A DNA stretch of 64,000 bases from Patescibacteria group bacterium (GTDB lineage: Bacteria > Patescibacteriota > Minisyncoccia > UBA6257 > 1-14-0-10-40-38): NCBI GenBank assembly GCA_038064975.1, contig JBBTRX010000001.1, positions 336 through 64,335 of the forward strand, written 5' to 3'. The notes below the pieces were generated by a model. The model was not told where the DNA came from. It saw nothing but the letters and a program-made list of their open reading frames with translations, and searched no databases. Positions 8,633 through 56,976 of the stretch are shown here, piece by piece. Positions within the stretch are counted from its first letter, which is position 1. Every line of letters starts with the position of its first letter. A program made the position numbers and the translations under genes.

Positions 8633-10186
8633 TTAGCGGCGACTCCAATACGGTAAACAGTTTTCGCTTCCACATTTTAAGAAATACATAGTATTTTGAC
8701 CACCAACCGTTTGAAGAAACGTTACGACGGGAAGACCGTCCACACCAAGACCAATGGATGCATATTTACCGCCCCCTTCTCCGCCAAGAGATGCAGGTAA
8801 ATCTAATGCCAAAGGCGTGCCATGACTGATGGTACATTCTTTATTGCCACATTTTCGGACATAAAGTGCTTGAGCCGTCTTACTTTGATACGCAATTAAC
8901 GGCAAGCCATCAATGCTGGTAGTAATGGAAGAATATTTACCAACATCGCCTTCTGAGAGTGAACTGACTGTAGAAACTGTAACCAAACTTGGAGTGCAAT
9001 TAATATCTTTACAAGAAAGAAGCATTAAACGTCCATTAGTAGCATGATAAACAGTAATAAGAGGAAACCCATCAGAACCAACAGTAACGGAAGCAAACTC
9101 TCCAACGACCTCATTGAGAGCGTTATTAATAAGCTTATTAGTTACACTACTTGTGCATTCCATATTGGTACATTTTTTAAAATAAATACCTTGTGCGCCA
9201 GCAAGAACGTCATAATAGACGAAATAAGCCGTAAAGAGTAAACCATCCGAACCTAAAGCGAGCTGAGCTCTTGTTCCATTTTTTTCATCTCCCGATGGAA
9301 AACCAGAACCAAGAGTACTAATTGTTACTGGATTAGGAGGATTCTCACAACTTATATTTTCACAAAGAATAAGATAAACTCCTGCAGATGTAGTGCCTCT
9401 TCTGTAAGAGATCGCAGGAAATCCATTAGATTGCGTAGTAATTGAAGTCGGAAGATCTAGGACATTTATAGTATCGAGATCTCTATATGTAGAATTTTTA
9501 CACTCATAATCATAACAAGCATAAAAAATCAATTTAGGACCTGACGCAATACCCGCAATTATGGGATATCCATTTTGACCAATACTAATAGAAACATTTC
9601 CTATTCCCTGCGCAAGATCAAGATCGCTTATAGAAACCGGATTACTACAATCAGGGATAGTACAATGCCCGACTTTAATTCTACCGTCATCAACATAGAC
9701 GAATACCGGCATACCATCCCTACCTATAGTAAGCGCTAAATATCCTCCGGAAATAACTTCTGTTGGGTTGGGTAGACGATAATAAAAATTTTGCGTCGGA
9801 ATCTTAGTATTCGGGAAGAATCGCTGAGATATACCCTCAAGAGTAATACCACCATTAACGCTTAACTTAGCAATAGCAGTAGGTCTTCCAATCGCTACGT
9901 TCCCTTGAGTTAAAAGATTGTTACCGTTAGCAGTGATTCCGATATAAGACGAGCCAATACTTAAAGCTCCTCCAACAGAAAGCGCGCTCTGCGGTTCTTC
10001 TGAATCCGAAAGTGCAATACCTACTTTCGTAGGATCAGTTACACCAGGTTTTAGCCCACCAACTCCAACTCCCGGAAAATTATTGGGATTAACCCACGCA
10101 AAAACTCCGCCCGCAAACAGAATCGCCGCAGACAAAAAAGCGATGGCGAAGATGAATTTGGTATTATGATGCATAAATTTTTCCAT
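8633..10186 (-). CDS. surface repeat protein, paralog 1
   Basis: N-terminal TM/signal, then a Gly-rich beta-helix-like region (SVGGALSIGSSYIGITANGNN). About eight ~40-aa repeats follow, of the form [ST]x[IL]GxDGxPxI.Y...KCxxxxC. C-terminus is CLPYWSRR. Confidence 0.6.
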   Translation of the reverse strand: MEKFMHHNTKFIFAIAFLSAAILFAGGVFAWVNPNNFPGVGVGGLKPGVTDPTKVGIALSDSEEPQSALSVGGALSIGSSYIGITANGNNLLTQGNVAIGRPTAIAKLSVNGGITLEGISQRFFPNTKIPTQNFYYRLPNPTEVISGGYLALTIGRDGMPVFVYVDDGRIKVGHCTIPDCSNPVSISDLDLAQGIGNVSISIGQNGYPIIAGIASGPKLIFYACYDYECKNSTYRDLDTINVLDLPTSITTQSNGFPAISYRRGTTSAGVYLILCENISCENPPNPVTISTLGSGFPSGDEKNGTRAQLALGSDGLLFTAYFVYYDVLAGAQGIYFKKCTNMECTSSVTNKLINNALNEVVGEFASVTVGSDGFPLITVYHATNGRLMLLSCKDINCTPSLVTVSTVSSLSEGDVGKYSSITTSIDGLPLIAYQSKTAQALYVRKCGNKECTISHGTPLALDLPASLGGEGGGKYASIGLGVDGLPVVTFLQTVGGQNTMYFLKCGSENCLPYWSRR

Positions 10187-10190
10187 AGCA

Positions 10191-11720
10191 TTATCGTGTC
10201 CAATACGGCAGACACCTATCGCTTCCGCATGTTACGAGCTTAAAACCCCCATCTATACGATATGCGACTATCGGTATGCCATGTGATCCAATAGCGACTG
10301 TTGTTCCAAAATTAATAGCATTACTTTGCTCAAGTTCATAGAGTGTATTTTTACCCGAAGAACAATCAGAGCTTGAGCACACGGCAATACGAGAGGCAAG
10401 CATGGGGTTGAGAGACCCTGCTGTTGAGCTTGCAATATAACTTATGACTGGAAAACCATTTATTCCCAATGTGATAGCATTCCACTCCCCACTATTCCAC
10501 GTCGGAGACATGGTGAAACTATCTACCACATTAGATGTAGACGCCGTACAACTAATATCAAGACATTTTAAGACGCGCAACTCACTCAGCCCTCCCACAC
10601 GCACACCGGTGGAAATAACTGGTAATCCATCCAATCCGATTGTGAGCGAATTATGGTATCCGGAGCCTTTTTCACTTGAACCCATATCTTTAGTTAAAAA
10701 ACTAAGACAATCATAATTGGTATTACACTTTGCAAGACGAAGTCTCTGCGAACCGGTAGTGCTCGCGTAATACGACATAACAGGAAGGCCATCATACCCG
10801 ATACCCATAGAGACTGTACCAAATATGACACCTCCCGGAGGGATATCAAATCCCTCCTGAATAGTGCTTGTTAGACCAAGATCGCTACAACCCGCATCAT
10901 TACATTTTCGAAATACAAGTTTATTGGGTGATCCGGCCCGATAATACGCAAGCACGGGATTGCCCGTCTCCGGACTGATACGTATAGAAGGTGAATATCC
11001 TTCGGGATCTACGATACTTTTAATAGATGTCATGCAAGCGATATCGGAACATTTTGCAACTTTTAATTGAGTATTAAGAGTGATTGGATCAACAAAATTA
11101 TAAGCGAATACAGGGCGATTATCTGAACCAATAACAAGAGAATTATCAGCGCTCGTAAGCGCTCCACTTGCTTCTACCAATGAATCAGTATAAGTAGTAC
11201 ACCGTACGTCGTTGCATTTAACAATACGGAACGCCCCTATTCCCGCCTCTTCGGAGGCATAGTATGCCATTACCGGAAAACCATCCGAACCAATAGTCAT
11301 AGAGATATATCTTCCACCAGTAACATTCAAAAGACTTTCCCCTTCGTTTATTGGAAAGCGAGCGTCCCATGATCCGAATTGGATAGTTCTTCCAATGGCA
11401 ATTGTTCCGTTAAGATTTAATGATCCCTTAATAACAGAAGCTCCCTCCCCTATGCCAGCCTTTCCCTCAACATACATTGTTCCTGGAGGAGCAAAAGTCG
11501 TTGTAGCATAGGACCCTATACTCGCACCTCCCAGGACCGTAAGAGAACTTCCCGAAAGAGAAGTATTAATCCCAATATTGCCTCCTTGCGATCGGAGCAC
11601 TCCTTGTTCTGTAGGCGGGTCTTGAGTTGGACTAATAAAACCAAACGTAAGTCCAGCAAGAAGAATAGCAAAAAAAGCTGCCGCGGAAGTTATATTAATG
11701 AGAATACGATGTTCGTGCAT
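10191..11720 (-). CDS. surface repeat protein, paralog 2
   Basis: Same architecture as paralog 1, C-terminus CLPYWTR. The 88-bp repeat lies directly upstream of its start. Confidence 0.6.
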   Translation of the reverse strand: MHEHRILINITSAAAFFAILLAGLTFGFISPTQDPPTEQGVLRSQGGNIGINTSLSGSSLTVLGGASIGSYATTTFAPPGTMYVEGKAGIGEGASVIKGSLNLNGTIAIGRTIQFGSWDARFPINEGESLLNVTGGRYISMTIGSDGFPVMAYYASEEAGIGAFRIVKCNDVRCTTYTDSLVEASGALTSADNSLVIGSDNRPVFAYNFVDPITLNTQLKVAKCSDIACMTSIKSIVDPEGYSPSIRISPETGNPVLAYYRAGSPNKLVFRKCNDAGCSDLGLTSTIQEGFDIPPGGVIFGTVSMGIGYDGLPVMSYYASTTGSQRLRLAKCNTNYDCLSFLTKDMGSSEKGSGYHNSLTIGLDGLPVISTGVRVGGLSELRVLKCLDISCTASTSNVVDSFTMSPTWNSGEWNAITLGINGFPVISYIASSTAGSLNPMLASRIAVCSSSDCSSGKNTLYELEQSNAINFGTTVAIGSHGIPIVAYRIDGGFKLVTCGSDRCLPYWTR

Positions 11721-11721
11721 A

Positions 11722-11809
11722 GGAATAGAATCTAGAAAATAGAATCTAGAAAATAGAAATAAGAAGTGGAAAATAATATTTGTATCATTTGTATATTAGT
11801 ATCGATACA
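11722..11809. repeat. 88-bp repeat, copy 1 (inverted relative to 16277..16364)
   Basis: The reverse complement is 87/88 identical to 16277..16364. It contains tandem tagaatctagaaaa units and ends 1 nt before the paralog-2 start codon. Confidence 0.8.
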
Positions 11810-11831
11810 CAATTTCTTTGTTTATTGCACA

Positions 11832-13439
11832 TTATCTCCGTGTCCAATACGGAACACAAAACTCGCTTCCGCATTGGAAGCTTGTCAGCAATCCGGACCC
11901 GGAAATAGAATTAATAAAACCGACAAGAGGGAGTCCGTGTGAGCCCACAAATACCGCCGCGCCGGGAGCCGCATAAAATTCAGAGGGGGAGAGACCGAAA
12001 TAATCTGCTCCAGTAAGAACCAATCTTGTTTCCTTAAATTCATCGTTACCAGATACATCTTTACCACAAAACTCGTTACCACATCGTATAAAATAAAGAT
12101 TATTATTATCATTTCCTGGATCCGTTGTGGAATAAATCAAGATGGGCGTGCCATGAACACTCGTCGCCGCACGAATTGAAGTAACGCTTACTCCAGAAGA
12201 AAATGTTTTTATCACATCTGTTGATGGTGTAGAACATGAAATATCATCACATTTTGTAACACGTAAAGTCGCATTACCTCCCTCTGACGTATGAAAAATG
12301 AGAGGAGTACCATCACGAGAAATAACAATAGCGTTTAATTTGCCAACAACCGTAATGCCGCTGGATGGCCAATCTAAAGGATCATCTAATTTAACAGGGT
12401 TAGTGGATGCCGAACAATTTGTTGTTCTACATCTGATAAATTTCAATGTATTTCCATCATCTCCATCTTGATACGCAATAATCGGAAAAACATTGATACC
12501 GAGCGTAAATGCAAGATAATCAAACGCACCAGAGATTAACGTAAGATCTTCTTTGCTCGCACAAGCAGGATCATAGCAATGAATAACCTTAATCGGGTTA
12601 CCCGAACCAAGTCGGATTGAAATTATGACAGGATTACCATCCCCTCCAATAATCATATCTGCTGATTGAGTATTAGTATCTACAACAATAGAAGAGTTTG
12701 TAGCACAATTTAAAGAAGTACAAGCCAAGAAACGAGTCGCCGTACTAAAGAGTGATTTATTTTTAATAAGCACTATAGGATAATCACCCGGACCCGGCTT
12801 TGCGCTTAATATTTCAGGTAATTTATTATTTAGCCCCATAAGGGTATATGCGATGACAGGAGAGTCAGCAAGAGAGCAGTCTATTTTGCGACATCGTAGT
12901 GCATATACGTTCTTATCTCCCTCATTAACACCCTGCTCAGCAAGTGTGTAAAAAAAGATTGGCGTTCCATCACGATTAACGGTAAACGCAGATGTTTGGA
13001 CATCGCCAGCAATAAGAAAAGAAGTTACTACATGAGGGAGGGGAACTTTGGCATTTCTATCATAACGCTGTTGAATTCCATCTATCGTAATACCCCCACC
13101 GGAAAGACTAAGGGGTGCTGTTATAGTACTCGTCCCGATACCAAGTGCGACTTCCACATTTAATCCATTTGCTACCGCAGAAAGACTGGCTCCCTGCGAC
13201 GTACTCGCGATAGAAAGAGATCCGTTAATACTCAAAGCATTTAGCGCATTTTCCGTATTAATACCGATAAAGCCATTTGATGCTCTATGAATAGTTCCTG
13301 ATGTATTAGGAGGGCCACCGCCGGGACCATCCCATCCCCTCACAACGCCTGCGATAAGAAGGCCAAGAAAAAGAAAAGAAAAAAGACCAATGAGAATTGA
13401 ATGCCTTTTTTCTGAAAAATTAAATTTAGTATTTTCCAT
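11832..13439 (-). CDS. surface repeat protein, paralog 3
   Basis: Same architecture as paralogs 1 and 2, C-terminus CVPYWTRR. Confidence 0.6.
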   Translation of the reverse strand: MENTKFNFSEKRHSILIGLFSFLFLGLLIAGVVRGWDGPGGGPPNTSGTIHRASNGFIGINTENALNALSINGSLSIASTSQGASLSAVANGLNVEVALGIGTSTITAPLSLSGGGITIDGIQQRYDRNAKVPLPHVVTSFLIAGDVQTSAFTVNRDGTPIFFYTLAEQGVNEGDKNVYALRCRKIDCSLADSPVIAYTLMGLNNKLPEILSAKPGPGDYPIVLIKNKSLFSTATRFLACTSLNCATNSSIVVDTNTQSADMIIGGDGNPVIISIRLGSGNPIKVIHCYDPACASKEDLTLISGAFDYLAFTLGINVFPIIAYQDGDDGNTLKFIRCRTTNCSASTNPVKLDDPLDWPSSGITVVGKLNAIVISRDGTPLIFHTSEGGNATLRVTKCDDISCSTPSTDVIKTFSSGVSVTSIRAATSVHGTPILIYSTTDPGNDNNNLYFIRCGNEFCGKDVSGNDEFKETRLVLTGADYFGLSPSEFYAAPGAAVFVGSHGLPLVGFINSISGSGLLTSFQCGSEFCVPYWTRR

Positions 13440-43183: not shown

Positions 43184-43768
43184 CTAAGAGGCAGTTACTT
43201 GTCCCTTCTTATCCACCTTCACGCGTTTCGTTTTTCCCCCACCCAAGCGAAGCTCTGAAGTGGTTTCGGAGGGTCTCACGAAGAAGTATTCTGATCCCTT
43301 GCTCACACTGACATGTTCCAAGCCAGCTACAGCTTCGGGCTCTTGAAGAATGCGCTCCTTGTTAATCTCCTCCGCCGCCGGACGGATAAATCTACGTAAT
43401 CCGGCTTCTTTCAATTCTGTAATCGCCTCTTCAGAAGTACCTTTGATCTTCACGCTCGGAGGATTCGTCCTGAACCCAACCATAGCGATCGCAAGATCAA
43501 CTGACTTCCGATCAGCCGGCAAAATTTCGTCTCTATGCATCTTTGCGTACGCGGCGAGACTGCGGGCATTCTGTTCAGCTTGTTGGGCAATTCTTTCAAT
43601 ATCCAATTCCGTTTTTACCATAAGCGCCGTGATCACTTCTTCACGCTTGGATTCTATGGCTTCAATATTGCGCAGTTCAGCGCAGAGCAGAGACAATGCC
43701 CTAGTAAACTCATGATTGTCTTGCAATTCAGGAATAGTAGGTTTCTTTTCGGCTTTCTTCTTTGCCAC
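43184..43768 (-). CDS. phage Mu Gam-like host-nuclease inhibitor / DNA end-binding protein
   Basis: RTNPPSVKIKGTSEEAITELKEAGLRRFIRPAAEEINKERILQEPEAVAGL closely parallels the Mu Gam core (RPPSVSIRGMDAVMETLERLGLQRFIRTKQEINKEAILLEPKAVAG). Confidence 0.7.
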   Translation of the reverse strand: MAKKKAEKKPTIPELQDNHEFTRALSLLCAELRNIEAIESKREEVITALMVKTELDIERIAQQAEQNARSLAAYAKMHRDEILPADRKSVDLAIAMVGFRTNPPSVKIKGTSEEAITELKEAGLRRFIRPAAEEINKERILQEPEAVAGLEHVSVSKGSEYFFVRPSETTSELRLGGGKTKRVKVDKKGQVTAS

Positions 43769-49912: not shown

Positions 49913-50098
49913 CTAAAATATAAATTGCTGAAGGATTGAAGTAAACGCAAAATCCAGAACACCCAAAAACAATGCCGTTGCGAGCGACATGCCAATCACG
50001 ATAAATGTAAGACGGCGCGTTTCCGCGAATGTAGGCCAATTAATTCGCTTAAACTCACGTCTCGTTTCTTGGAAAAATAGGATTGCCTTGGCGAACAT
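49913..50098 (-). CDS. secE: preprotein translocase subunit SecE
   Basis: 61 aa with a single TM helix, directly upstream of nusG. Confidence 0.7.
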   Translation of the reverse strand: MFAKAILFFQETRREFKRINWPTFAETRRLTFIVIGMSLATALFLGVLDFAFTSILQQFIF

Positions 50099-50150: not shown

Positions 50151-52229
<2,079 letters not shown>

Positions 52230-52345: not shown

Positions 52346-52642
52346 ATGGTCCAACAAGGAAGGATCGATTTCGACGAAGTCACGATTATCACAAGACTTG
52401 GAAAGTCATGGACCGAAGATGAGATGGAGCACCTGATCGAACATGTCGGCCCTCTGTCGCCGATGCCAGGAACCGAAGATACAGTACTCATGATTCCTGG
52501 AGTACACAGCACGATCACGATCAACGGGATTCTCGGTCACTACAAGTTCGATCGAAAAACGGTCCTCAAGTCTGAAGTTCCGCAATTCCCCAAGTCCATC
52601 CCCCCTCAAGTCCTCGAGACAGTACTTGCAGGCCTTGTCTAG
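52346..52642 (+). CDS. hypothetical protein
   Basis: 98 aa with SD ACGGAGGAAG, followed by a strong terminator accccgcacc-atcact-ggtgcggggt + T7 at 52655-52690. Confidence 0.45.
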   Translation: MVQQGRIDFDEVTIITRLGKSWTEDEMEHLIEHVGPLSPMPGTEDTVLMIPGVHSTITINGILGHYKFDRKTVLKSEVPQFPKSIPPQVLETVLAGLV

Positions 52643-52705
52643 GAACTCGCGCACACCCCGCACCATCACTGGTGCGGGGTCATTTTTTTACAAAGACTTC
52701 CTTTC

Positions 52706-53920
52706 CTACCTAATTACAGCGCGGAGTTCTTCTGTTGTTTGGTGTTCTATAGCGTGATGCACTGCACTCACTTCATCATTAGTGAGCGTCCGTGCGAACG
52801 AACGATACACAATACGGAAGGTATAGCTTTTCTTTCCTTCGCCAAGCTTTTTCTCATTTTCATACTCATCAATTAATTGCACCTCTTCAATCAAATCTTT
52901 TCCAAGTTCCCGCACGATTTCATAAAAACGGTTCGGCACGACGTCGCTATTTACGATAAACGAAATATCACGGGTTACTGTAGGATATTTACTAATTTCC
53001 TCATACTGGCTATCAACGCTCGTAAATTGTTTCGTAATGCGAGGATTGTCGGACCATAAAATGCGAATATCAGGAATATTCATTTTTTGCATCGCCAAGC
53101 GCTCCACACCAAAACCAAATGCCCATCCGTTATAAACCTGTGGGTCAATATTTAAATTTTTAAGCGTTGTTTCTCGCGCAAGGCCGGCACCCAAAATCTC
53201 AAGCCACTCCCCTTTAAATTTTATTTCCATCTGCGTACTCGGATGCGTGTAGGGGAAATTGTCGTCCAAAAACCGCGCCTCAATATTGGGACCGAATACT
53301 GACTGCACGATATTCGTAAGTACTCCGTGCAAATCATCCAGAGTAATCACCTTTTCGCTCCGACGCGTAAGAAAAAGCCCGTCAATCTGATGAAATATGG
53401 GGGAGTGCTTCCGATCAATCTCATCCTTGCGATATACTTTGCCGTAGGAAAGCACGCCAAGCCATCCGCGGGTCTCTAATTTTTTAACAATGTTCGGATC
53501 AAGCAAATAATACATCCACATGGATGTCGTCTGTGTACGGAGCAACCGTTCGGGAGTAATAAAGTAAGTGTCCGTTGGACGCCGTGCAGGATGATCACTC
53601 GGAAAATCAAAAAGATCAAAATTATATTCCGTGGTTATCGTTTCAGGAATAGAAGCAATATCAAAATCCTTAAAGAGAGGAAGACTTACGATAGTATCAA
53701 TAACAAGCTTAACCGGAGAATTTTCCTTGCGCGTAAGATCGGGCAAATTAATAAGACGTAAAAAACGGAGCGCATCAAAATCTTTTCGCTTTTTTAAACT
53801 CTCCAAAACTGGAGTTTCTTCCGAATCAAGATATGTTATTGCCTCACCTCCTGTCCGCGAGTCTATTCTCTCGTCTTTTCGAGGAAAAGGCGGAGGGAGT
53901 TTCTTCCCAAATGTAGCCAT
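52706..53920 (-). CDS. pheS: phenylalanyl-tRNA synthetase, single-chain form: PheS catalytic core fused to a C-terminal FDX-ACB anticodon-binding domain
   Basis: Class II motif 2 (SYGKVYRKDEIDRKHSPIFHQIDGLF) and motif 3 (GWAFGFGVERLAM). A ~95-aa C-terminal domain (SKYPTVTRDISFIVNSDV...EVQLIDEYEN...GKKSYTFRIVYRSFARTLTNDEV) matches the FDX-ACB domain normally found at the PheT C-terminus and in mitochondrial PheRS. Confidence 0.75.
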   Translation of the reverse strand: MATFGKKLPPPFPRKDERIDSRTGGEAITYLDSEETPVLESLKKRKDFDALRFLRLINLPDLTRKENSPVKLVIDTIVSLPLFKDFDIASIPETITTEYNFDLFDFPSDHPARRPTDTYFITPERLLRTQTTSMWMYYLLDPNIVKKLETRGWLGVLSYGKVYRKDEIDRKHSPIFHQIDGLFLTRRSEKVITLDDLHGVLTNIVQSVFGPNIEARFLDDNFPYTHPSTQMEIKFKGEWLEILGAGLARETTLKNLNIDPQVYNGWAFGFGVERLAMQKMNIPDIRILWSDNPRITKQFTSVDSQYEEISKYPTVTRDISFIVNSDVVPNRFYEIVRELGKDLIEEVQLIDEYENEKKLGEGKKSYTFRIVYRSFARTLTNDEVSAVHHAIEHQTTEELRAVIR

Positions 53921-53934
53921 ACGGTATATAAAAA

Positions 53935-54237
53935 TTATAGTATCACACTCTCTTTAATCCGCTCCATTTCCCGCTCCACGACATCCCCGTCATATTCTCC
54001 TGCATGAGCACTCGTTCCCGAGTAGGATGGCGCCCTCTGATCCAAATGCAGATTGATAACCCATGCGTCCCCTTGTGGCGCTACATACACATGGAACCGC
54101 GGAAAATCCCCACCTCCTGCGCGGCGCACATAAGAGATTTCTTTAGTCCTTCCATTCACTTCTTGTTTGTACCCCGCATTCCGAAGCAAGAGCGGAATAT
54201 TTTTTTGCCCTCCGGCGTTAGGAATTAAAAGTTTCAT
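53935..54237 (-). CDS. hypothetical protein
   Basis: 100-aa ORF with no recognised family. Confidence 0.35.
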   Translation of the reverse strand: MKLLIPNAGGQKNIPLLLRNAGYKQEVNGRTKEISYVRRAGGGDFPRFHVYVAPQGDAWVINLHLDQRAPSYSGTSAHAGEYDGDVVEREMERIKESVIL

Positions 54238-54241
54238 ATAT

Positions 54242-54318
54242 ATGGTGCCGACGGGAGGAATCGAACCTCCGACCTAGCGCTTATGAAACGCCCGCTCTAA
54301 CCGCTGAGCTACGTCGGC
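54242..54318 (-). tRNA. tRNA-Met (anticodon CAT; elongator or Ile2-type), CCA encoded
   Basis: GCCGACGTAGCTCAGCGGTTAGAGCGGGCGTTTCATAAGCGCTAGGTCGGAGGTTCGATTCCTCCCGTCGGCACCA. Pair 1:72 is G-C. Confidence 0.75.
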
Positions 54319-54433
54319 AACGTCCCCATAAATGTACTAAAAAATGAGGAGAGATGCAAAAGAATACAATCCTTTCAGTTCGAGTCCCATCACAAAAAAT
54401 TAATCCGCTCATAAAGAGCGGTATTAATTTTTG

Positions 54434-54507
54434 CGCGGTGGACGGGACTCGAACCCGCGACCTCTTCCGTGACAGGGAAGCGCTCTAGCCAGCTGAGCTA
54501 CCACCGC
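54434..54507 (-). tRNA. tRNA-Asp (anticodon GTC)
   Basis: GCGGTGGTAGCTCAGCTGGCTAGAGCGCTTCCCTGTCACGGAAGAGGTCGCGGGTTCGAGTCCCGTCCACCGCG. Confidence 0.8.
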
Positions 54508-55473: not shown

Positions 55474-56784
55474 CTAAGCCCTTTGGGCTTGGACGGCTTT
55501 TTTATATTGCATTCCCCTATCTTCGTAGTTTTTGAACATATCAAAACTCGCTGCTCCAGGAGAAAGTATAATACTCACTCGTGGACACTCTTCGCTAAGC
55601 GATTGCTTTGCGGTGCGATATGCATGCAGAACCGCAGAAGATATTGTAGGAGCAGAATATTTTTTGAAGAATAATGGACCAAGAAGGTTGCTAAGTTTAT
55701 GCTGTATTTCTCCAATAGCAATAATTTCTAATGCGTATTGTTTCTGCTTGATTGCGGCATTGCGGAGCGGAGCGTAATCAAGATTTTTATTTTTACCTCC
55801 TGCTATTAGAATGAACGGATGTGTGAACGAAGTAATCGCCGCTCCTGCCGCTTCAGGATTCGTTGCTGCTGAATCATCGAAGAAATCAATAATGCCTTGT
55901 TCTGTTGTTATAGTGCGTACTAACTCCATGCGATGAGCAAGGCCTCTAAAATTTTTGAGCGATTTTTGAATGATAGTGTCAGAAACGCCAATATGCTTCG
56001 CAATAGCAATAGCAATATCCCTATTTTTACGCGATCCCTTTTCGTGCGGATATACGGGAAATTTCTTGCCCCGTGATTGTTTCGCAATTTTTGTACTGAT
56101 TGGATTTTCCGCAAGATAAAAAATACTGTCGCCTTTTATCTGATATTTAGCAATTGCCGTTTTAGCATCATAATATTCGCGAAGTGATGCGTGGCTATCT
56201 AAATGATCAGGAAACATATCAATCACAGTCGCGATGTGAGGCGATTCCGTAAGATCTTGTAATTGAAAGCTTGAGAGTTCAAGGATAACGAAATCAGCTC
56301 GTCGAGCCGCACGTAAGGCATCAAGCATAGGGAAACCAATATTCCCTACGACGGTAACGCGTTTTTTTGCGTTTTTAAGAATATGAGCAAGGAGCGTTAC
56401 GGTTGTACCCTTGCCTTTTGTGCCAGTAATTCCGATAAGCTTCTTTCGCATCGGGCGCATGAGCGCGAAGAAAAGTTTTGTTTGACTCGTAATTACTACT
56501 CCTTTCTTTCGAACATCCTGCAATGCAGGTAAAAGATAAGGAATGCCAGGCGAGCGAAAAATAAGATCAAACGATGAAAGATTTGTCGTATAATTTCGTC
56601 CTGTTTTTATATGAACGGACTTGGGAATATCACTATAGTGAGACTTGGAAATCAAGTTTTTATCAAGAATCCAAATTTCCGCTCCTTTATGAATAGGACT
56701 CTTGAGGAGAAACTGAAGAGTTGATTTACCCTCCCGTCCGAACCCTAAGAGAGCGATCTTCACTTTTATATGGTTTTCTTGCAT
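55474..56784 (-). CDS. murD: UDP-N-acetylmuramoylalanine--D-glutamate ligase
   Basis: N-terminal Rossmann-like domain, then Mur ligase P-loop GITGTKGKGTT. Start trimmed to MQENHIKVKIALLGFG. Confidence 0.85.
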   Translation of the reverse strand: MQENHIKVKIALLGFGREGKSTLQFLLKSPIHKGAEIWILDKNLISKSHYSDIPKSVHIKTGRNYTTNLSSFDLIFRSPGIPYLLPALQDVRKKGVVITSQTKLFFALMRPMRKKLIGITGTKGKGTTVTLLAHILKNAKKRVTVVGNIGFPMLDALRAARRADFVILELSSFQLQDLTESPHIATVIDMFPDHLDSHASLREYYDAKTAIAKYQIKGDSIFYLAENPISTKIAKQSRGKKFPVYPHEKGSRKNRDIAIAIAKHIGVSDTIIQKSLKNFRGLAHRMELVRTITTEQGIIDFFDDSAATNPEAAGAAITSFTHPFILIAGGKNKNLDYAPLRNAAIKQKQYALEIIAIGEIQHKLSNLLGPLFFKKYSAPTISSAVLHAYRTAKQSLSEECPRVSIILSPGAASFDMFKNYEDRGMQYKKAVQAQRA

Positions 56785-56812
56785 AATCGGTCCCTTCACT
56801 ATAGAATATTCG

Positions 56813-56885
56813 GGCAGGTTGGTGTACTGGTTGTGCATATCTGGCTCATAACCAGGAGGGGTAGGTTCGATTCCTGCACCTGCAA
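56813..56885 (+). tRNA. tRNA with CAT anticodon (Met/fMet/Ile2 ambiguous)
   Basis: GGCAGGT-TG-GTGTACTGGTTGTGCAT-A-TCTGGCTCATAACCAGG-AGGG-GTAGGTTCGATTCCTGC-ACCTGCA-A. The anticodon loop is CTCATAA. Positions 1:72 appear to be a G.A mismatch and the D-stem has two G-U pairs. Folded by hand. Confidence 0.5.
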
Positions 56886-56976
56886 CAGAATAAAATAATA
56901 GAAGTCTCGATGCAACGCAATCGGGGCTTTTATTATTCTGCAGGAAGAAGAATGAAAGTTTAGTATCTCATTAATT

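What the first reader, a model, noticed from the sequence alone, without database searches (positions are those of the whole stretch)
52706..53920. Single-chain, mitochondrial-type PheRS (PheS core fused to an FDX-ACB domain) with no pheT nearby
Bacterial PheRS is normally an (alpha-beta)2 heterotetramer with pheS-pheT adjacent. Here the 404-aa protein carries the class II catalytic motifs and then a C-terminal ~95-aa domain. That domain matches the ferredoxin-fold anticodon-binding domain normally found at the end of PheT. The architecture and size are those of monomeric mitochondrial PheRS. No pheT follows; a terminator does.
Basis: partly seen in the sequence, partly recalled or inferred. 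Interest (0 to 1): 0.55.

Follow-up and report, generated by a model that had tools for sequence, protein, structure and literature searches.

The report
Single-chain mitochondrial-type PheRS in a bacterium
A groundwater Patescibacteria (CPR) bacterium carries a one-gene, mitochondrial-style phenylalanyl-tRNA synthetase in the chromosomal slot where related bacteria keep the usual two-gene pheS-pheT enzyme, so this "mitochondrial" enzyme design is also used by a large clade of bacteria.

Summary
ORF 52706..53920 (-) encodes a 404-aa protein with a class IIc PheRS catalytic core (PF01409, E 1e-57) followed by an FDX-ACB anticodon-binding domain (PF03147, E 6e-25). Its AlphaFold model superposes over its full length on human mitochondrial PheRS (TM 0.71-0.73). 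The window is a Patescibacteria MAG contig. More than 120 clusters of close relatives share the architecture.

In related Patescibacteria the conserved block reads pheS-pheT-gyrB-secE-nusG-rplK. In the window and five other genomes the fused gene sits at that position upstream of gyrB. No locus has both forms, and one fully tabulated Paceibacterales bin has pheS-pheT and no fused gene.

The fused gene is not a recent local pheS-pheT deletion. Its ACB domain is 40% identical to eukaryotic and viral single-chain enzymes but 25% to PheT B8 domains. It shares their linker and signature residues. In trees it is sister to the eukaryote/virus clade (98%), not nested in it. It is not NCBI's "SrmL mystery ligase" (230 vs cutoff 300 bits), which lies in defence-like neighbourhoods.

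It is most likely the cell's only PheRS, monomeric and without editing. Genome-wide absence of pheT is inferred, not shown. The downstream hairpin is oriented for the opposite-strand ORF.

The parts
52706..53920 (-). Gene for the single-chain PheRS (404 aa plus stop)
   Evidence: ORF list. 100% identical to NCBI 'hypothetical protein AAB407_00290 [Patescibacteria group bacterium]'. Called as a gene on ENA contig Hain_H51_01um...length_65945.
53735..53920 (-). N-terminal region, residues 1-62. Residues 1-46 are a lineage-specific extension; two helices follow at 35-58.
   Evidence: Residues 1-46 are shared only with the closest relatives, and many family members start near residue 47 (alignment A1). 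The AF2 model gives pLDDT 77-92 after residue 10. There is no PF02912 coiled-coil domain of canonical PheS.
53024..53734 (-). Class IIc catalytic core (PF01409), residues 63-299
   Evidence: Pfam E 1.1e-57. tblastn with E. coli PheS gives 35.6% identity at 53752-53024.
53375..53443 (-). Class II motif 2 and its loop, GKVYRKDEIDRKHSPIFHQIDGL (residues 160-182)
   Evidence: G160, R164-D169, H172, F176-Q178, D180 and G181 are invariant in 23 family members. The 'DEID..H' form is shared with mito-type enzymes, whereas canonical PheS has 'D.DATH'.
53246..53257 (-). Phe-pocket motif FPYT (residues 222-225), equivalent to FPFT in E. coli PheS and human FARS2
   Evidence: F222, P223 and T225 are invariant; position 224 is F or Y across the family.
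53090..53128 (-). Class II motif 3, GWAFGFGVERLAM (residues 265-277), including A267 (position of E. coli PheS A294) and R274
   Evidence: G265, A267-G271, R274 and L275 are invariant. The Trp in GWAFG is shared with mito-type enzymes and absent from canonical PheS.
52994..53023 (-). Linker between the catalytic core and the ACB domain (residues 300-309)
   Evidence: The junction pattern 'IPDIR..WS.D.R..QF...SKYP...RDISF' is shared with eukaryotic and viral single-chain PheRS.
52709..52993 (-). FDX-ACB (B8-type) anticodon-binding domain, residues 310-404
   Evidence: Pfam PF03147 E 6.3e-25. It is 40-41% identical to eukaryotic and viral ACB domains and 25% to PheT B8 domains. It matches TIGR00472 pheT_bact positions 687-798.
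52655..52680 (.). GC-rich hairpin between the convergent genes, with its T-tract on the + strand
   Evidence: Terminator scan and sequence reading.
50151..52208 (-). gyrB, the downstream anchor of the conserved block (followed by secE 49913-50098, nusG, rplK and dcd)
   Evidence: Pfam families listed for L003. The same block follows pheS-pheT in PMX.50 and L009, and follows the fused gene in L001, L008 and L093.
53935..54507 (-). Upstream units on the same strand, tightly packed: tRNA-Asp (54433-54507), tRNA-Met (54243-54318) and a 100-aa ORF (53935-54237). Probably co-transcribed with the PheRS gene.
   Evidence: ARAGORN and Rfam. Gaps of 5 nt and 14 nt are seen in the sequence. Co-transcription is inferred.

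Best explanation
This gene encodes the housekeeping phenylalanyl-tRNA synthetase of a Patescibacteria (Paceibacteria-type) bacterium. It belongs to a bacterial sister clade of the monomeric 'mitochondrial-type' PheRS. One polypeptide carries the class IIc active site, which makes Phe-AMP and transfers Phe to tRNA-Phe. It also carries a C-terminal ferredoxin-fold domain that reads the GAA anticodon. By analogy with human mtPheRS, the enzyme would rest in a closed form and swing the ACB domain open to bind tRNA. It has no B3/B4 editing domain, so mischarged Tyr-tRNA-Phe cannot be cleared in cis. In this lineage the gene has replaced the ancestral pheS-pheT pair at the same chromosomal position, upstream of gyrB-secE-nusG-rplK. 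Shown here: architecture, fold, conservation of catalytic residues, membership of the single-chain lineage, the syntenic slot, and non-co-occurrence in the loci sampled. Inferred: that it is the only PheRS in the cell, that it is monomeric, its Phe/tRNA-Phe specificity, and the open/closed mechanism.
For: Architecture and motifs. Best sequence and fold matches over the full length are human mtPheRS; the AF2 model has pLDDT 89.4 and pTM 0.86. Core-gene behaviour: more than 120 clusters at 90% identity with the same two domains, at 53-71% identity, in Paceibacterota, Nealsonbacteria and Harrisonbacteria MAGs. Local GC is 43%, typical of the contig. Syntenic replacement: PMX.50 reads pheS-pheT-gyrB-secE-nusG-rplK-dcd (PMC9763046 supplement). 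Seven GTDB Patescibacteria loci have pheS-pheT upstream of gyrB (L009, L013, L016, L017, L023, L025, L046). The window, L001, L008, L018, L093 and the P0119 contig have the fused gene next to gyrB. None has both. The complete 866-gene table of Paceibacterales bin PMX_810_sub contains exactly one PF01409 gene (pheS) and one PF03147 gene (pheT), so it has the canonical pair and no fused gene (PMC10936435 supplement). Lineage: the ACB domain is 40-41% identical to eukaryotic and viral forms and 25% to PheT B8; the junction and signature residues are shared. In the concatenated NJ tree the eukaryote/virus/unnamed clade excludes CPR at 98% and canonical PheRS is monophyletic at 100%.
Against: No whole genome carrying the fused gene could be scanned, so absence of pheS and pheT elsewhere is inferred from synteny and from a sample of 13 loci plus one complete bin. 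Canonical PheST does exist in other Patescibacteria, including genomes named Nealsonbacteria, a label also carried by some fused-gene genomes. The window protein scores below all curated NCBIfam cutoffs (pheS_mito 233 vs 258), and NCBI annotates it as hypothetical. A related fused family (SrmL) is regarded by NCBI curators as having unknown function, and it groups with the CPR clade in my tree. The active-site Glu of 'FHQxEG' is Asp here. No tRNA-Phe is in the window, and no biochemistry exists.
Confidence: 0.8

Rival explanations
1. The fused protein is an accessory paralogue with a non-canonical job (as NCBI assumes for the 'PheS-related mystery ligase SrmL'), and a normal pheS-pheT pair elsewhere in the genome does the housekeeping charging.
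For: It scores 230 bits on the SrmL model, nearly the same as on pheS_mito. SrmL groups with the CPR clade in the concatenated tree at 89-92%. Canonical PheST occurs in some Patescibacteria. Genome-wide absence of pheT was not tested.
Against: True SrmL proteins score 387-402 bits against a cutoff of 300, and they score only 126-166 bits on pheS_mito. SrmL lies beside reverse transcriptase, PLD nuclease and radical-SAM genes, not in a housekeeping block. The window gene sits exactly where pheS-pheT sits in relatives, and never together with them in 13 loci. A complete bin with canonical PheST lacks it. All catalytic and ACB signature residues are conserved across the family.
Confidence: 0.12
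2. The gene arose recently and locally by an in-frame deletion inside the resident pheS-pheT operon that joined the PheS core to the last domain of PheT. Its resemblance to mitochondrial PheRS would then be convergent.
For: It occupies the pheS-pheT position upstream of gyrB. The domain order (PheS core, then PheT B8) is what such a deletion would give.
Against: The ACB domain is only 25% identical to PheT B8 domains, Patescibacterial ones included, against 40-41% to eukaryotic and viral single-chain enzymes; the linker is also shared with those. All eight Patescibacterial PheS proteins fall in a 100%-supported canonical clade that excludes the fused family. Several derived residues are shared with mito-type enzymes only.
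Confidence: 0.04
3. The contig or gene is not bacterial: a eukaryotic, giant-virus or huge-phage sequence was mis-binned, or a very recent transfer from one of these.
For: Compact single-chain PheRS occurs in Tupanvirus, in huge-phage-like 500-kb contigs and in eukaryotes.
Against: The 64-kb window carries bacterial core genes: GroEL, PBP2, SMC, DnaE, ThrRS, GatCAB, LigA, GyrB, MurD, SecE-NusG-L11. Gene order is conserved across six or more Patescibacteria genomes. GC content is uniform. The CPR clade is separate from the eukaryote/virus clade at 98%.
Confidence: 0.01

Closest known systems
Mitochondrial/organellar monomeric PheRS (human FARS2, yeast Msf1; TIGR00469 pheS_mito; PDB 3cmq, 3tup)
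   Same: The domain order is the same (class IIc core, short linker, FDX-ACB) and so is the size. Identity to FARS2 is 35%. The predicted fold matches the closed crystal form (TM 0.71-0.73). Signature residues are shared ('DEID..H', 'GWAFG', 'IPDIR..WS', 'SKYP...DISF'). Both lack a beta subunit and an editing domain.
   Different: It is encoded in a bacterial chromosome with no targeting peptide. It lacks the roughly 31-residue insertion that metazoan enzymes have between motif 2 and FPFT, and it has its own roughly 11-residue insertion after motif 1 and a 46-residue N-terminal extension. It scores just below the curated cutoff (233 vs 258 bits). It forms a sister clade and is not nested among eukaryotes.
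Canonical bacterial (alpha-beta)2 PheRS (pheS/pheT; TIGR00468 and TIGR00472)
   Same: The catalytic chemistry is the same and the core is homologous (about 36% identity to E. coli PheS). The C-terminal domain is homologous to PheT B8. The gene occupies the same chromosomal slot in Patescibacteria.
   Different: There is no PF02912 coiled-coil and no B1-B7 domains, so no B3/B4 editing site, no B2 or B5 domain and no heterotetramer interface. It is one gene instead of two.
NCBIfam NF051887 'PheS-related mystery ligase SrmL'
   Same: The two-domain layout is the same. SrmL groups with the CPR clade in the NJ tree (89-92%).
   Different: True SrmL proteins score 387-402 bits, against 230 here. SrmL has a degenerate ACB domain (a weak Pfam hit), diverged motifs and accessory or defence-like neighbours (RVT_1, PLDc_2, radical SAM).
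Viral single-chain PheRS (Tupanvirus; huge phages with genomes of about 500-635 kb)
   Same: Compact, leaderless, single-gene PheRS in a size-constrained genome. Identity to the Tupanvirus enzyme is 37%.
   Different: The viral proteins belong to the eukaryote-type clade and are auxiliary genes, not a cell's sole enzyme.

Membership tests
Monomeric mitochondrial-type PheRS (TIGR00469 / FARS2 family) | Single polypeptide: class IIc PheRS core followed by a C-terminal FDX-ACB domain | tested here: met
   PF01409 at 63-299 and PF03147 at 310-404.
Monomeric mitochondrial-type PheRS (TIGR00469 / FARS2 family) | Scores above the curated TIGR00469 cutoff (258.35 bits) | tested here: not met
   The window protein scores 233.0 bits. 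Three of ten CPR relatives pass, at 261.7-267.4 bits. The clade straddles the cutoff.
Monomeric mitochondrial-type PheRS (TIGR00469 / FARS2 family) | Full-length fold, including domain packing, like solved mtPheRS | tested here: met
   Foldseek gives 5mgv and 3cmq at E 2e-32, TM 0.71-0.73 and about 388 columns. Canonical PheS chains cover only half (TMq 0.5).
Monomeric mitochondrial-type PheRS (TIGR00469 / FARS2 family) | Shares the fusion junction and derived residues of the family (common origin of the fusion) | tested here: met
   Consensus comparison and domain identities. In the tree, all fused forms are separated from canonical PheRS at 100%.
Monomeric mitochondrial-type PheRS (TIGR00469 / FARS2 family) | Works without a beta subunit (no pheT in the genome); monomeric; charges tRNA-Phe | not testable with these tools
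   There is no pheT in the 64 kb, and the gene occupies the pheST slot. Neither the whole genome nor the protein's activity could be examined.
Canonical bacterial PheS (TIGR00468) | Score above cutoff (237.45), N-terminal PF02912 domain, adjacent pheT | tested here: not met
   163.3 bits. No PF02912. No pheT. Excluded from the canonical clade at 100%.
SrmL 'PheS-related mystery ligase' (NF051887) | Score above cutoff (300 bits) | tested here: not met
   230.0 bits. Ten relatives score 240-271. True members score 387-402.
SrmL 'PheS-related mystery ligase' (NF051887) | Accessory genomic context (as seen here for the two true members) | tested here: not met
   SrmL neighbours are RVT_1, PLDc_2, radical SAM and NUDIX. 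The window gene sits in the GatCA...gyrB-secE-nusG-rplK housekeeping block.

The most novel reading that the evidence does not exclude
The single-chain PheRS is not a mitochondrial invention. A large clade of free-living or episymbiotic bacteria (Paceibacteria-type CPR) uses it as their only PheRS, having displaced pheS-pheT in situ. This bacterial branch is sister to the whole eukaryote/virus branch and is not derived from it. The fusion would then be ancient, and eukaryotes (and, through them, giant viruses) may have acquired their organellar PheRS from a bacterium that already had the fused gene. The defence-island 'SrmL' ligases would be a neofunctionalised offshoot of the bacterial branch.
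Probability: 0.25. Interest if true: 0.8.

Novelty: new member of a known kind. Interest (0 to 1): 0.6.

Why it matters
Textbooks and aaRS reviews (my own knowledge) treat bacterial PheRS as a universal (alpha-beta)2 heterotetramer and treat the monomeric enzyme as a mitochondrial oddity. Here a whole bacterial clade appears to run translation on the monomeric form.

1. It removes the B3/B4 editing site from a cellular, non-organellar translation system. That makes Phe/Tyr quality control in CPR bacteria a testable question.
2. It gives a clean example of in-situ displacement of an essential two-gene enzyme by a one-gene analogue in streamlined genomes.
3. It provides a prokaryotic sister group for rooting the origin of mitochondrial PheRS.
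4. It has practical consequences. NCBI annotates many of these genes as 'hypothetical protein', and completeness estimates or marker sets that expect pheT could under-score such genomes (inference, not tested here).

I found no paper describing this in the searchable library. The architecture is nonetheless visible in public databases: JGI calls these proteins 'PheRS alpha chain', and some pass TIGR00469.

Tried and rejected
1. Direct test for pheT in fused-gene genomes was not possible.

2. Contig-length 'fingerprint' matching between the fused-gene hit list and a canonical PheS hit list (seed P0247) found no shared contigs. The seed turned out to be mostly non-CPR, so this is uninformative.

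3. Gene tables in papers gave mixed results. The Minisyncoccus table (PMC12281837) is truncated and has no PheRS rows. PMC12239599 has no gene table. PMC10936435 and PMC9763046 were useful.

4. Literature searches for SrmL, 'mystery ligase', monomeric or mitochondrial-like PheRS in bacteria, and pheT loss in Parcubacteria found nothing relevant.

5. I first read the compact 335-380 aa pheS_mito-type metagenomic proteins on long contigs as prokaryotic. I withdrew that reading. The named members are plant, oomycete, diatom and algal organellar enzymes plus Tupanvirus, and two 500-kb contigs look like huge phages.

7. The catalytic-domain-only NJ tree left the deep backbone unresolved at 42-47%. 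The concatenated analysis with composite outgroups resolved it. It is still only NJ with simple distances.

8. Pfam searches of the small flanking ORFs found nothing.

Full report
**1. What is at the coordinates**

The ORF 52706..53920 (minus strand) is real and encodes 404 aa. [quoted passage not shown] Three elements are present and invariant in an alignment of 23 relatives:
- motif 2, GKVYRKDEIDRKHSPIFHQIDGL;
- the Phe-pocket motif FPYT;
- motif 3, GWAFGFGVERLAM, which includes the Ala at the position of E. coli PheS A294 and the motif-3 Arg. The role of these two residues is from my own knowledge of PheRS.

The best matches among solved structures are the human mitochondrial PheRS entries (E 7e-62, 212 bits), ahead of bacterial PheS alpha chains (8e-41). 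BLASTP identity to FARS2 is 35% over 356 columns. I recalled the FARS2 sequence from memory and verified it as identical to PDB 3cmq over residues 38-451.

An AlphaFold2 model built on the family alignment is confident (pLDDT 89.4, pTM 0.86). It superposes over its whole length on the closed form of human mtPheRS (TM 0.71-0.73, about 388 columns, E about 1e-32). It matches the open tRNA-bound form (3tup) less well (TM 0.53), and canonical PheS chains over only half its length.

**2. The surroundings**

The window is a bacterial chromosome fragment. It carries GroEL, a PBP2-type transpeptidase, SMC, DnaE, ThrRS, GatCAB, LigA, GyrB, MurD, SecE-NusG-L11 and five tRNAs.

The protein is 100% identical to an NCBI 'hypothetical protein' of a 'Patescibacteria group bacterium' MAG. 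The contig comes from Hainich groundwater (ENA ERZ1292627).

No pheS or pheT other than this gene is detectable in the 64 kb by tblastn with the E. coli proteins or by Pfam on all ORFs of 500 aa or more.

The hairpin downstream (52655-52680) has its T-run on the + strand. It is the canonical terminator of a convergent 98-aa ORF (52346..52642). On the PheRS strand there is no U-tract.

Upstream on the same strand, tRNA-Asp, tRNA-Met and a 100-aa ORF are packed against the PheRS start codon with gaps of 5 and 14 nt. This suggests one transcript, which is an inference.

**3. Which family**

NCBIfam scores the protein almost equally on two models. It reaches 233 bits on 'pheS_mito' (TIGR00469, cutoff 258) and 230 bits on 'PheS-related mystery ligase SrmL' (NF051887, cutoff 300). 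It is below both cutoffs, and well below canonical pheS (163 vs 237).

Ten relatives behave the same way, and three of them pass pheS_mito. True SrmL proteins, which I found among the library representatives, score 387-402 bits on SrmL and only 126-166 on pheS_mito. They lie next to reverse transcriptase, PLD-nuclease and radical-SAM genes. The window protein is therefore not SrmL, either by score or by context.

**4. Is it the cell's PheRS or a spare?**

This is the crux, and the whole genome could not be scanned. Canonical PheST does exist in parts of the phylum:
- Mukai et al. 2017 mention many CPR PheRS-beta proteins (PMC5370408).
- GCA_023473595.1 has pheS next to a 943-aa pheT.
- The Paceibacterales bin PMX_810_sub has both genes (PMC10936435 Table S2).

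That table holds the entire bin (genes 00001-00866). It contains exactly one PF01409 gene and one PF03147 gene, so the bin has the canonical pair and no fused gene.

The decisive clue is synteny. In the Paceibacteria bin PMX.50 the order is pheS-pheT-gyrB-secE-nusG-rplK-dcd (PMC9763046 supplement). The window reads fused gene-gyrB-secE-nusG-rplK-dcd.

I anchored a scan of GTDB genomes on GyrB and classified the flanks:
- Seven Patescibacteria loci carry pheS-pheT upstream of gyrB (L009, L013, L016, L017, L023, L025, L046).
- The fused gene lies next to gyrB in the window, L001 (a 612-kb contig), L008 (Staskawiczbacteria) and L018 (Zambryskibacteria).
- The same holds in a Harrisonbacteria 443-kb contig and a 470-kb contig.
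- One genome (L094) keeps only the left flank, LigA-GatC-GatA.
- No locus has both forms.

The parsimonious reading is that the one-gene enzyme replaced the two-gene enzyme in place and is the only PheRS. I put this at about 0.8.

**5. How did it arise?**

A local in-frame deletion within pheS-pheT would give this domain order, but the sequences argue against a recent local event.
- The ACB domain is 40-41% identical to eukaryotic and viral single-chain enzymes and only 25% to PheT B8 domains, Patescibacterial ones included. The linker is shared with the single-chain enzymes.
- Derived residues are shared with the mito-type enzymes and absent from canonical PheS: 'DEID..H' instead of 'D.DATH', 'GWAFG', 'IPDIR..WS', 'DTY[YF]' and 'HPSR'.
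- In NJ trees, all eight Patescibacterial PheS proteins sit in a canonical clade (100%) that excludes every fused form.
- With catalytic and ACB domains concatenated, and composite PheS+PheT-B8 outgroups, the eukaryote/virus/unnamed proteins form a clade excluding CPR (98%). CPR groups with SrmL (89-92%).

Rooted on canonical PheRS, the bacterial branch is sister to the eukaryote/virus branch and not nested in it. The direction of any transfer cannot be decided from this. These are distance trees with simple corrections, so long-branch effects are possible.

**6. Who else has it?**

Beyond eukaryotic organelles (plants, oomycetes, diatoms, green algae, animals), compact leaderless versions occur in three places:
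- Tupanvirus;
- huge-phage-like contigs of about 500 kb, among PhageMetallopep, PcfJ and ORFan genes;
- a 635-kb phage record.

I had first taken these compact proteins for prokaryotic and withdrew that reading. As far as my sampling shows, the CPR clade (plus SrmL) is the cellular prokaryotic home of this architecture.

**7. Mechanism proposed**

The steps that are shown and those that are inferred are listed under the best explanation. The proposal is a single-chain class IIc synthetase in four points:
- The core activates Phe and transfers it to tRNA-Phe.
- The C-terminal ferredoxin-fold domain recognises the anticodon.
- The enzyme toggles between a closed resting form (the state the model adopts) and an open tRNA-bound form, as described for human mtPheRS (PDB 3cmq and 3tup; my own knowledge).
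- Without B3/B4 there is no cis-editing of Tyr-tRNA-Phe.

From my own knowledge, mitochondrial PheRS also lacks editing, and Mycoplasma PheRS has lost editing activity through editing-domain mutations. Loss of editing in a streamlined episymbiont is therefore plausible.

**8. Verdict**

Two corrections apply: the terminator orientation, and sister-clade rather than strict TIGR00469 membership.

The finding is a new (bacterial, apparently undescribed) member of a known kind of enzyme. Its interest is moderate to high because it contradicts the usual statement that bacterial PheRS is always heterotetrameric, because of the clean in-situ replacement, and because it bears on the origin of mitochondrial PheRS.

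Noticed in passing
L091:605-11741 and L092:1-21149 (metagenomic contigs carrying true SrmL proteins P0213 and P0250): The NCBIfam 'PheS-related mystery ligase SrmL' sits in accessory, defence-island-like contexts. In one case it is directly followed by two ~740-aa unknown proteins, an RVT_1 reverse transcriptase, a 564-aa unknown and a PLD-family nuclease. In the other it lies beside radical SAM, NUDIX, Asn-synthase-like and PLD genes. In my NJ tree SrmL groups with the CPR single-chain PheRS clade (89-92%).
   Followed up: partly
L088:8001-9023, L089:8001-9035; phage record LR745206.1 613872-614858: Compact (340-344 aa) single-chain PheRS genes occur on ~500-635 kb huge-phage-like contigs, among PhageMetallopep, PcfJ and ORFan genes, and in Tupanvirus (P0468). 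They cluster with the eukaryotic organellar enzymes, not with the CPR clade.
   Followed up: partly
window 52346-52680: A convergent 98-aa ORF (+ strand) with no Pfam hit, ending in a strong canonical terminator (52655-52680), is inserted between the PheRS gene and gyrB. It is absent from the syntenic loci L001 and L093, where gyrB follows within about 20-120 nt.
   Followed up: partly
window 53935-54507: tRNA-Asp, tRNA-Met, a conserved-position 100-aa ORF of unknown function and the PheRS gene are packed head to tail on the minus strand (gaps of 5 and 14 nt). This suggests a mixed tRNA-mRNA transcript. No obvious Shine-Dalgarno sequence precedes the PheRS ATG.
   Followed up: no
window 56813-56886 (+) vs 55474-56838 (-): A second tRNA-Met (weaker Rfam score, 44.9 bits) overlaps the 5' end of the murD ORF on the opposite strand by 26 nt. 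The annotated murD start may be too far upstream.
   Followed up: no
window 8633-13439 (-): Three consecutive large ORFs (517, 509 and 535 aa) have no Pfam match at E<=1e-5.
   Followed up: no
L013:5870-6619, L017:556-1317, L023:4055-4873, L046:5124-5879; L006:4548-7379: Several Patescibacteria canonical PheS proteins are only 249-272 aa and lack the N-terminal coiled-coil. One PheT (943 aa) carries an NLPC_P60 hit inside it. Canonical PheRS is itself unusually variable in this phylum.
   Followed up: no
L008:7828-8970: The Staskawiczbacteria orthologue has an altered motif 3 ('GYAGTFGLDRVAM' instead of 'GWAFGFGVERLAM'), and a 281-aa ORF is inserted between it and gyrB.
   Followed up: no
L010:5825-10001: A Moraniibacteriota genome shares both flanks with the window (LigA-GatC-GatA-x189 ... 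gyrB). It has only small unrelated ORFs and no PheRS gene of either kind in the 3.6-kb gap, so its PheRS lies elsewhere.
   Followed up: partly
window 43184-43768 (-): A Mu Gam-like protein (PF07352) is encoded about 3 kb beyond gatB. It is a possible prophage or mobile-element remnant.
   Followed up: no
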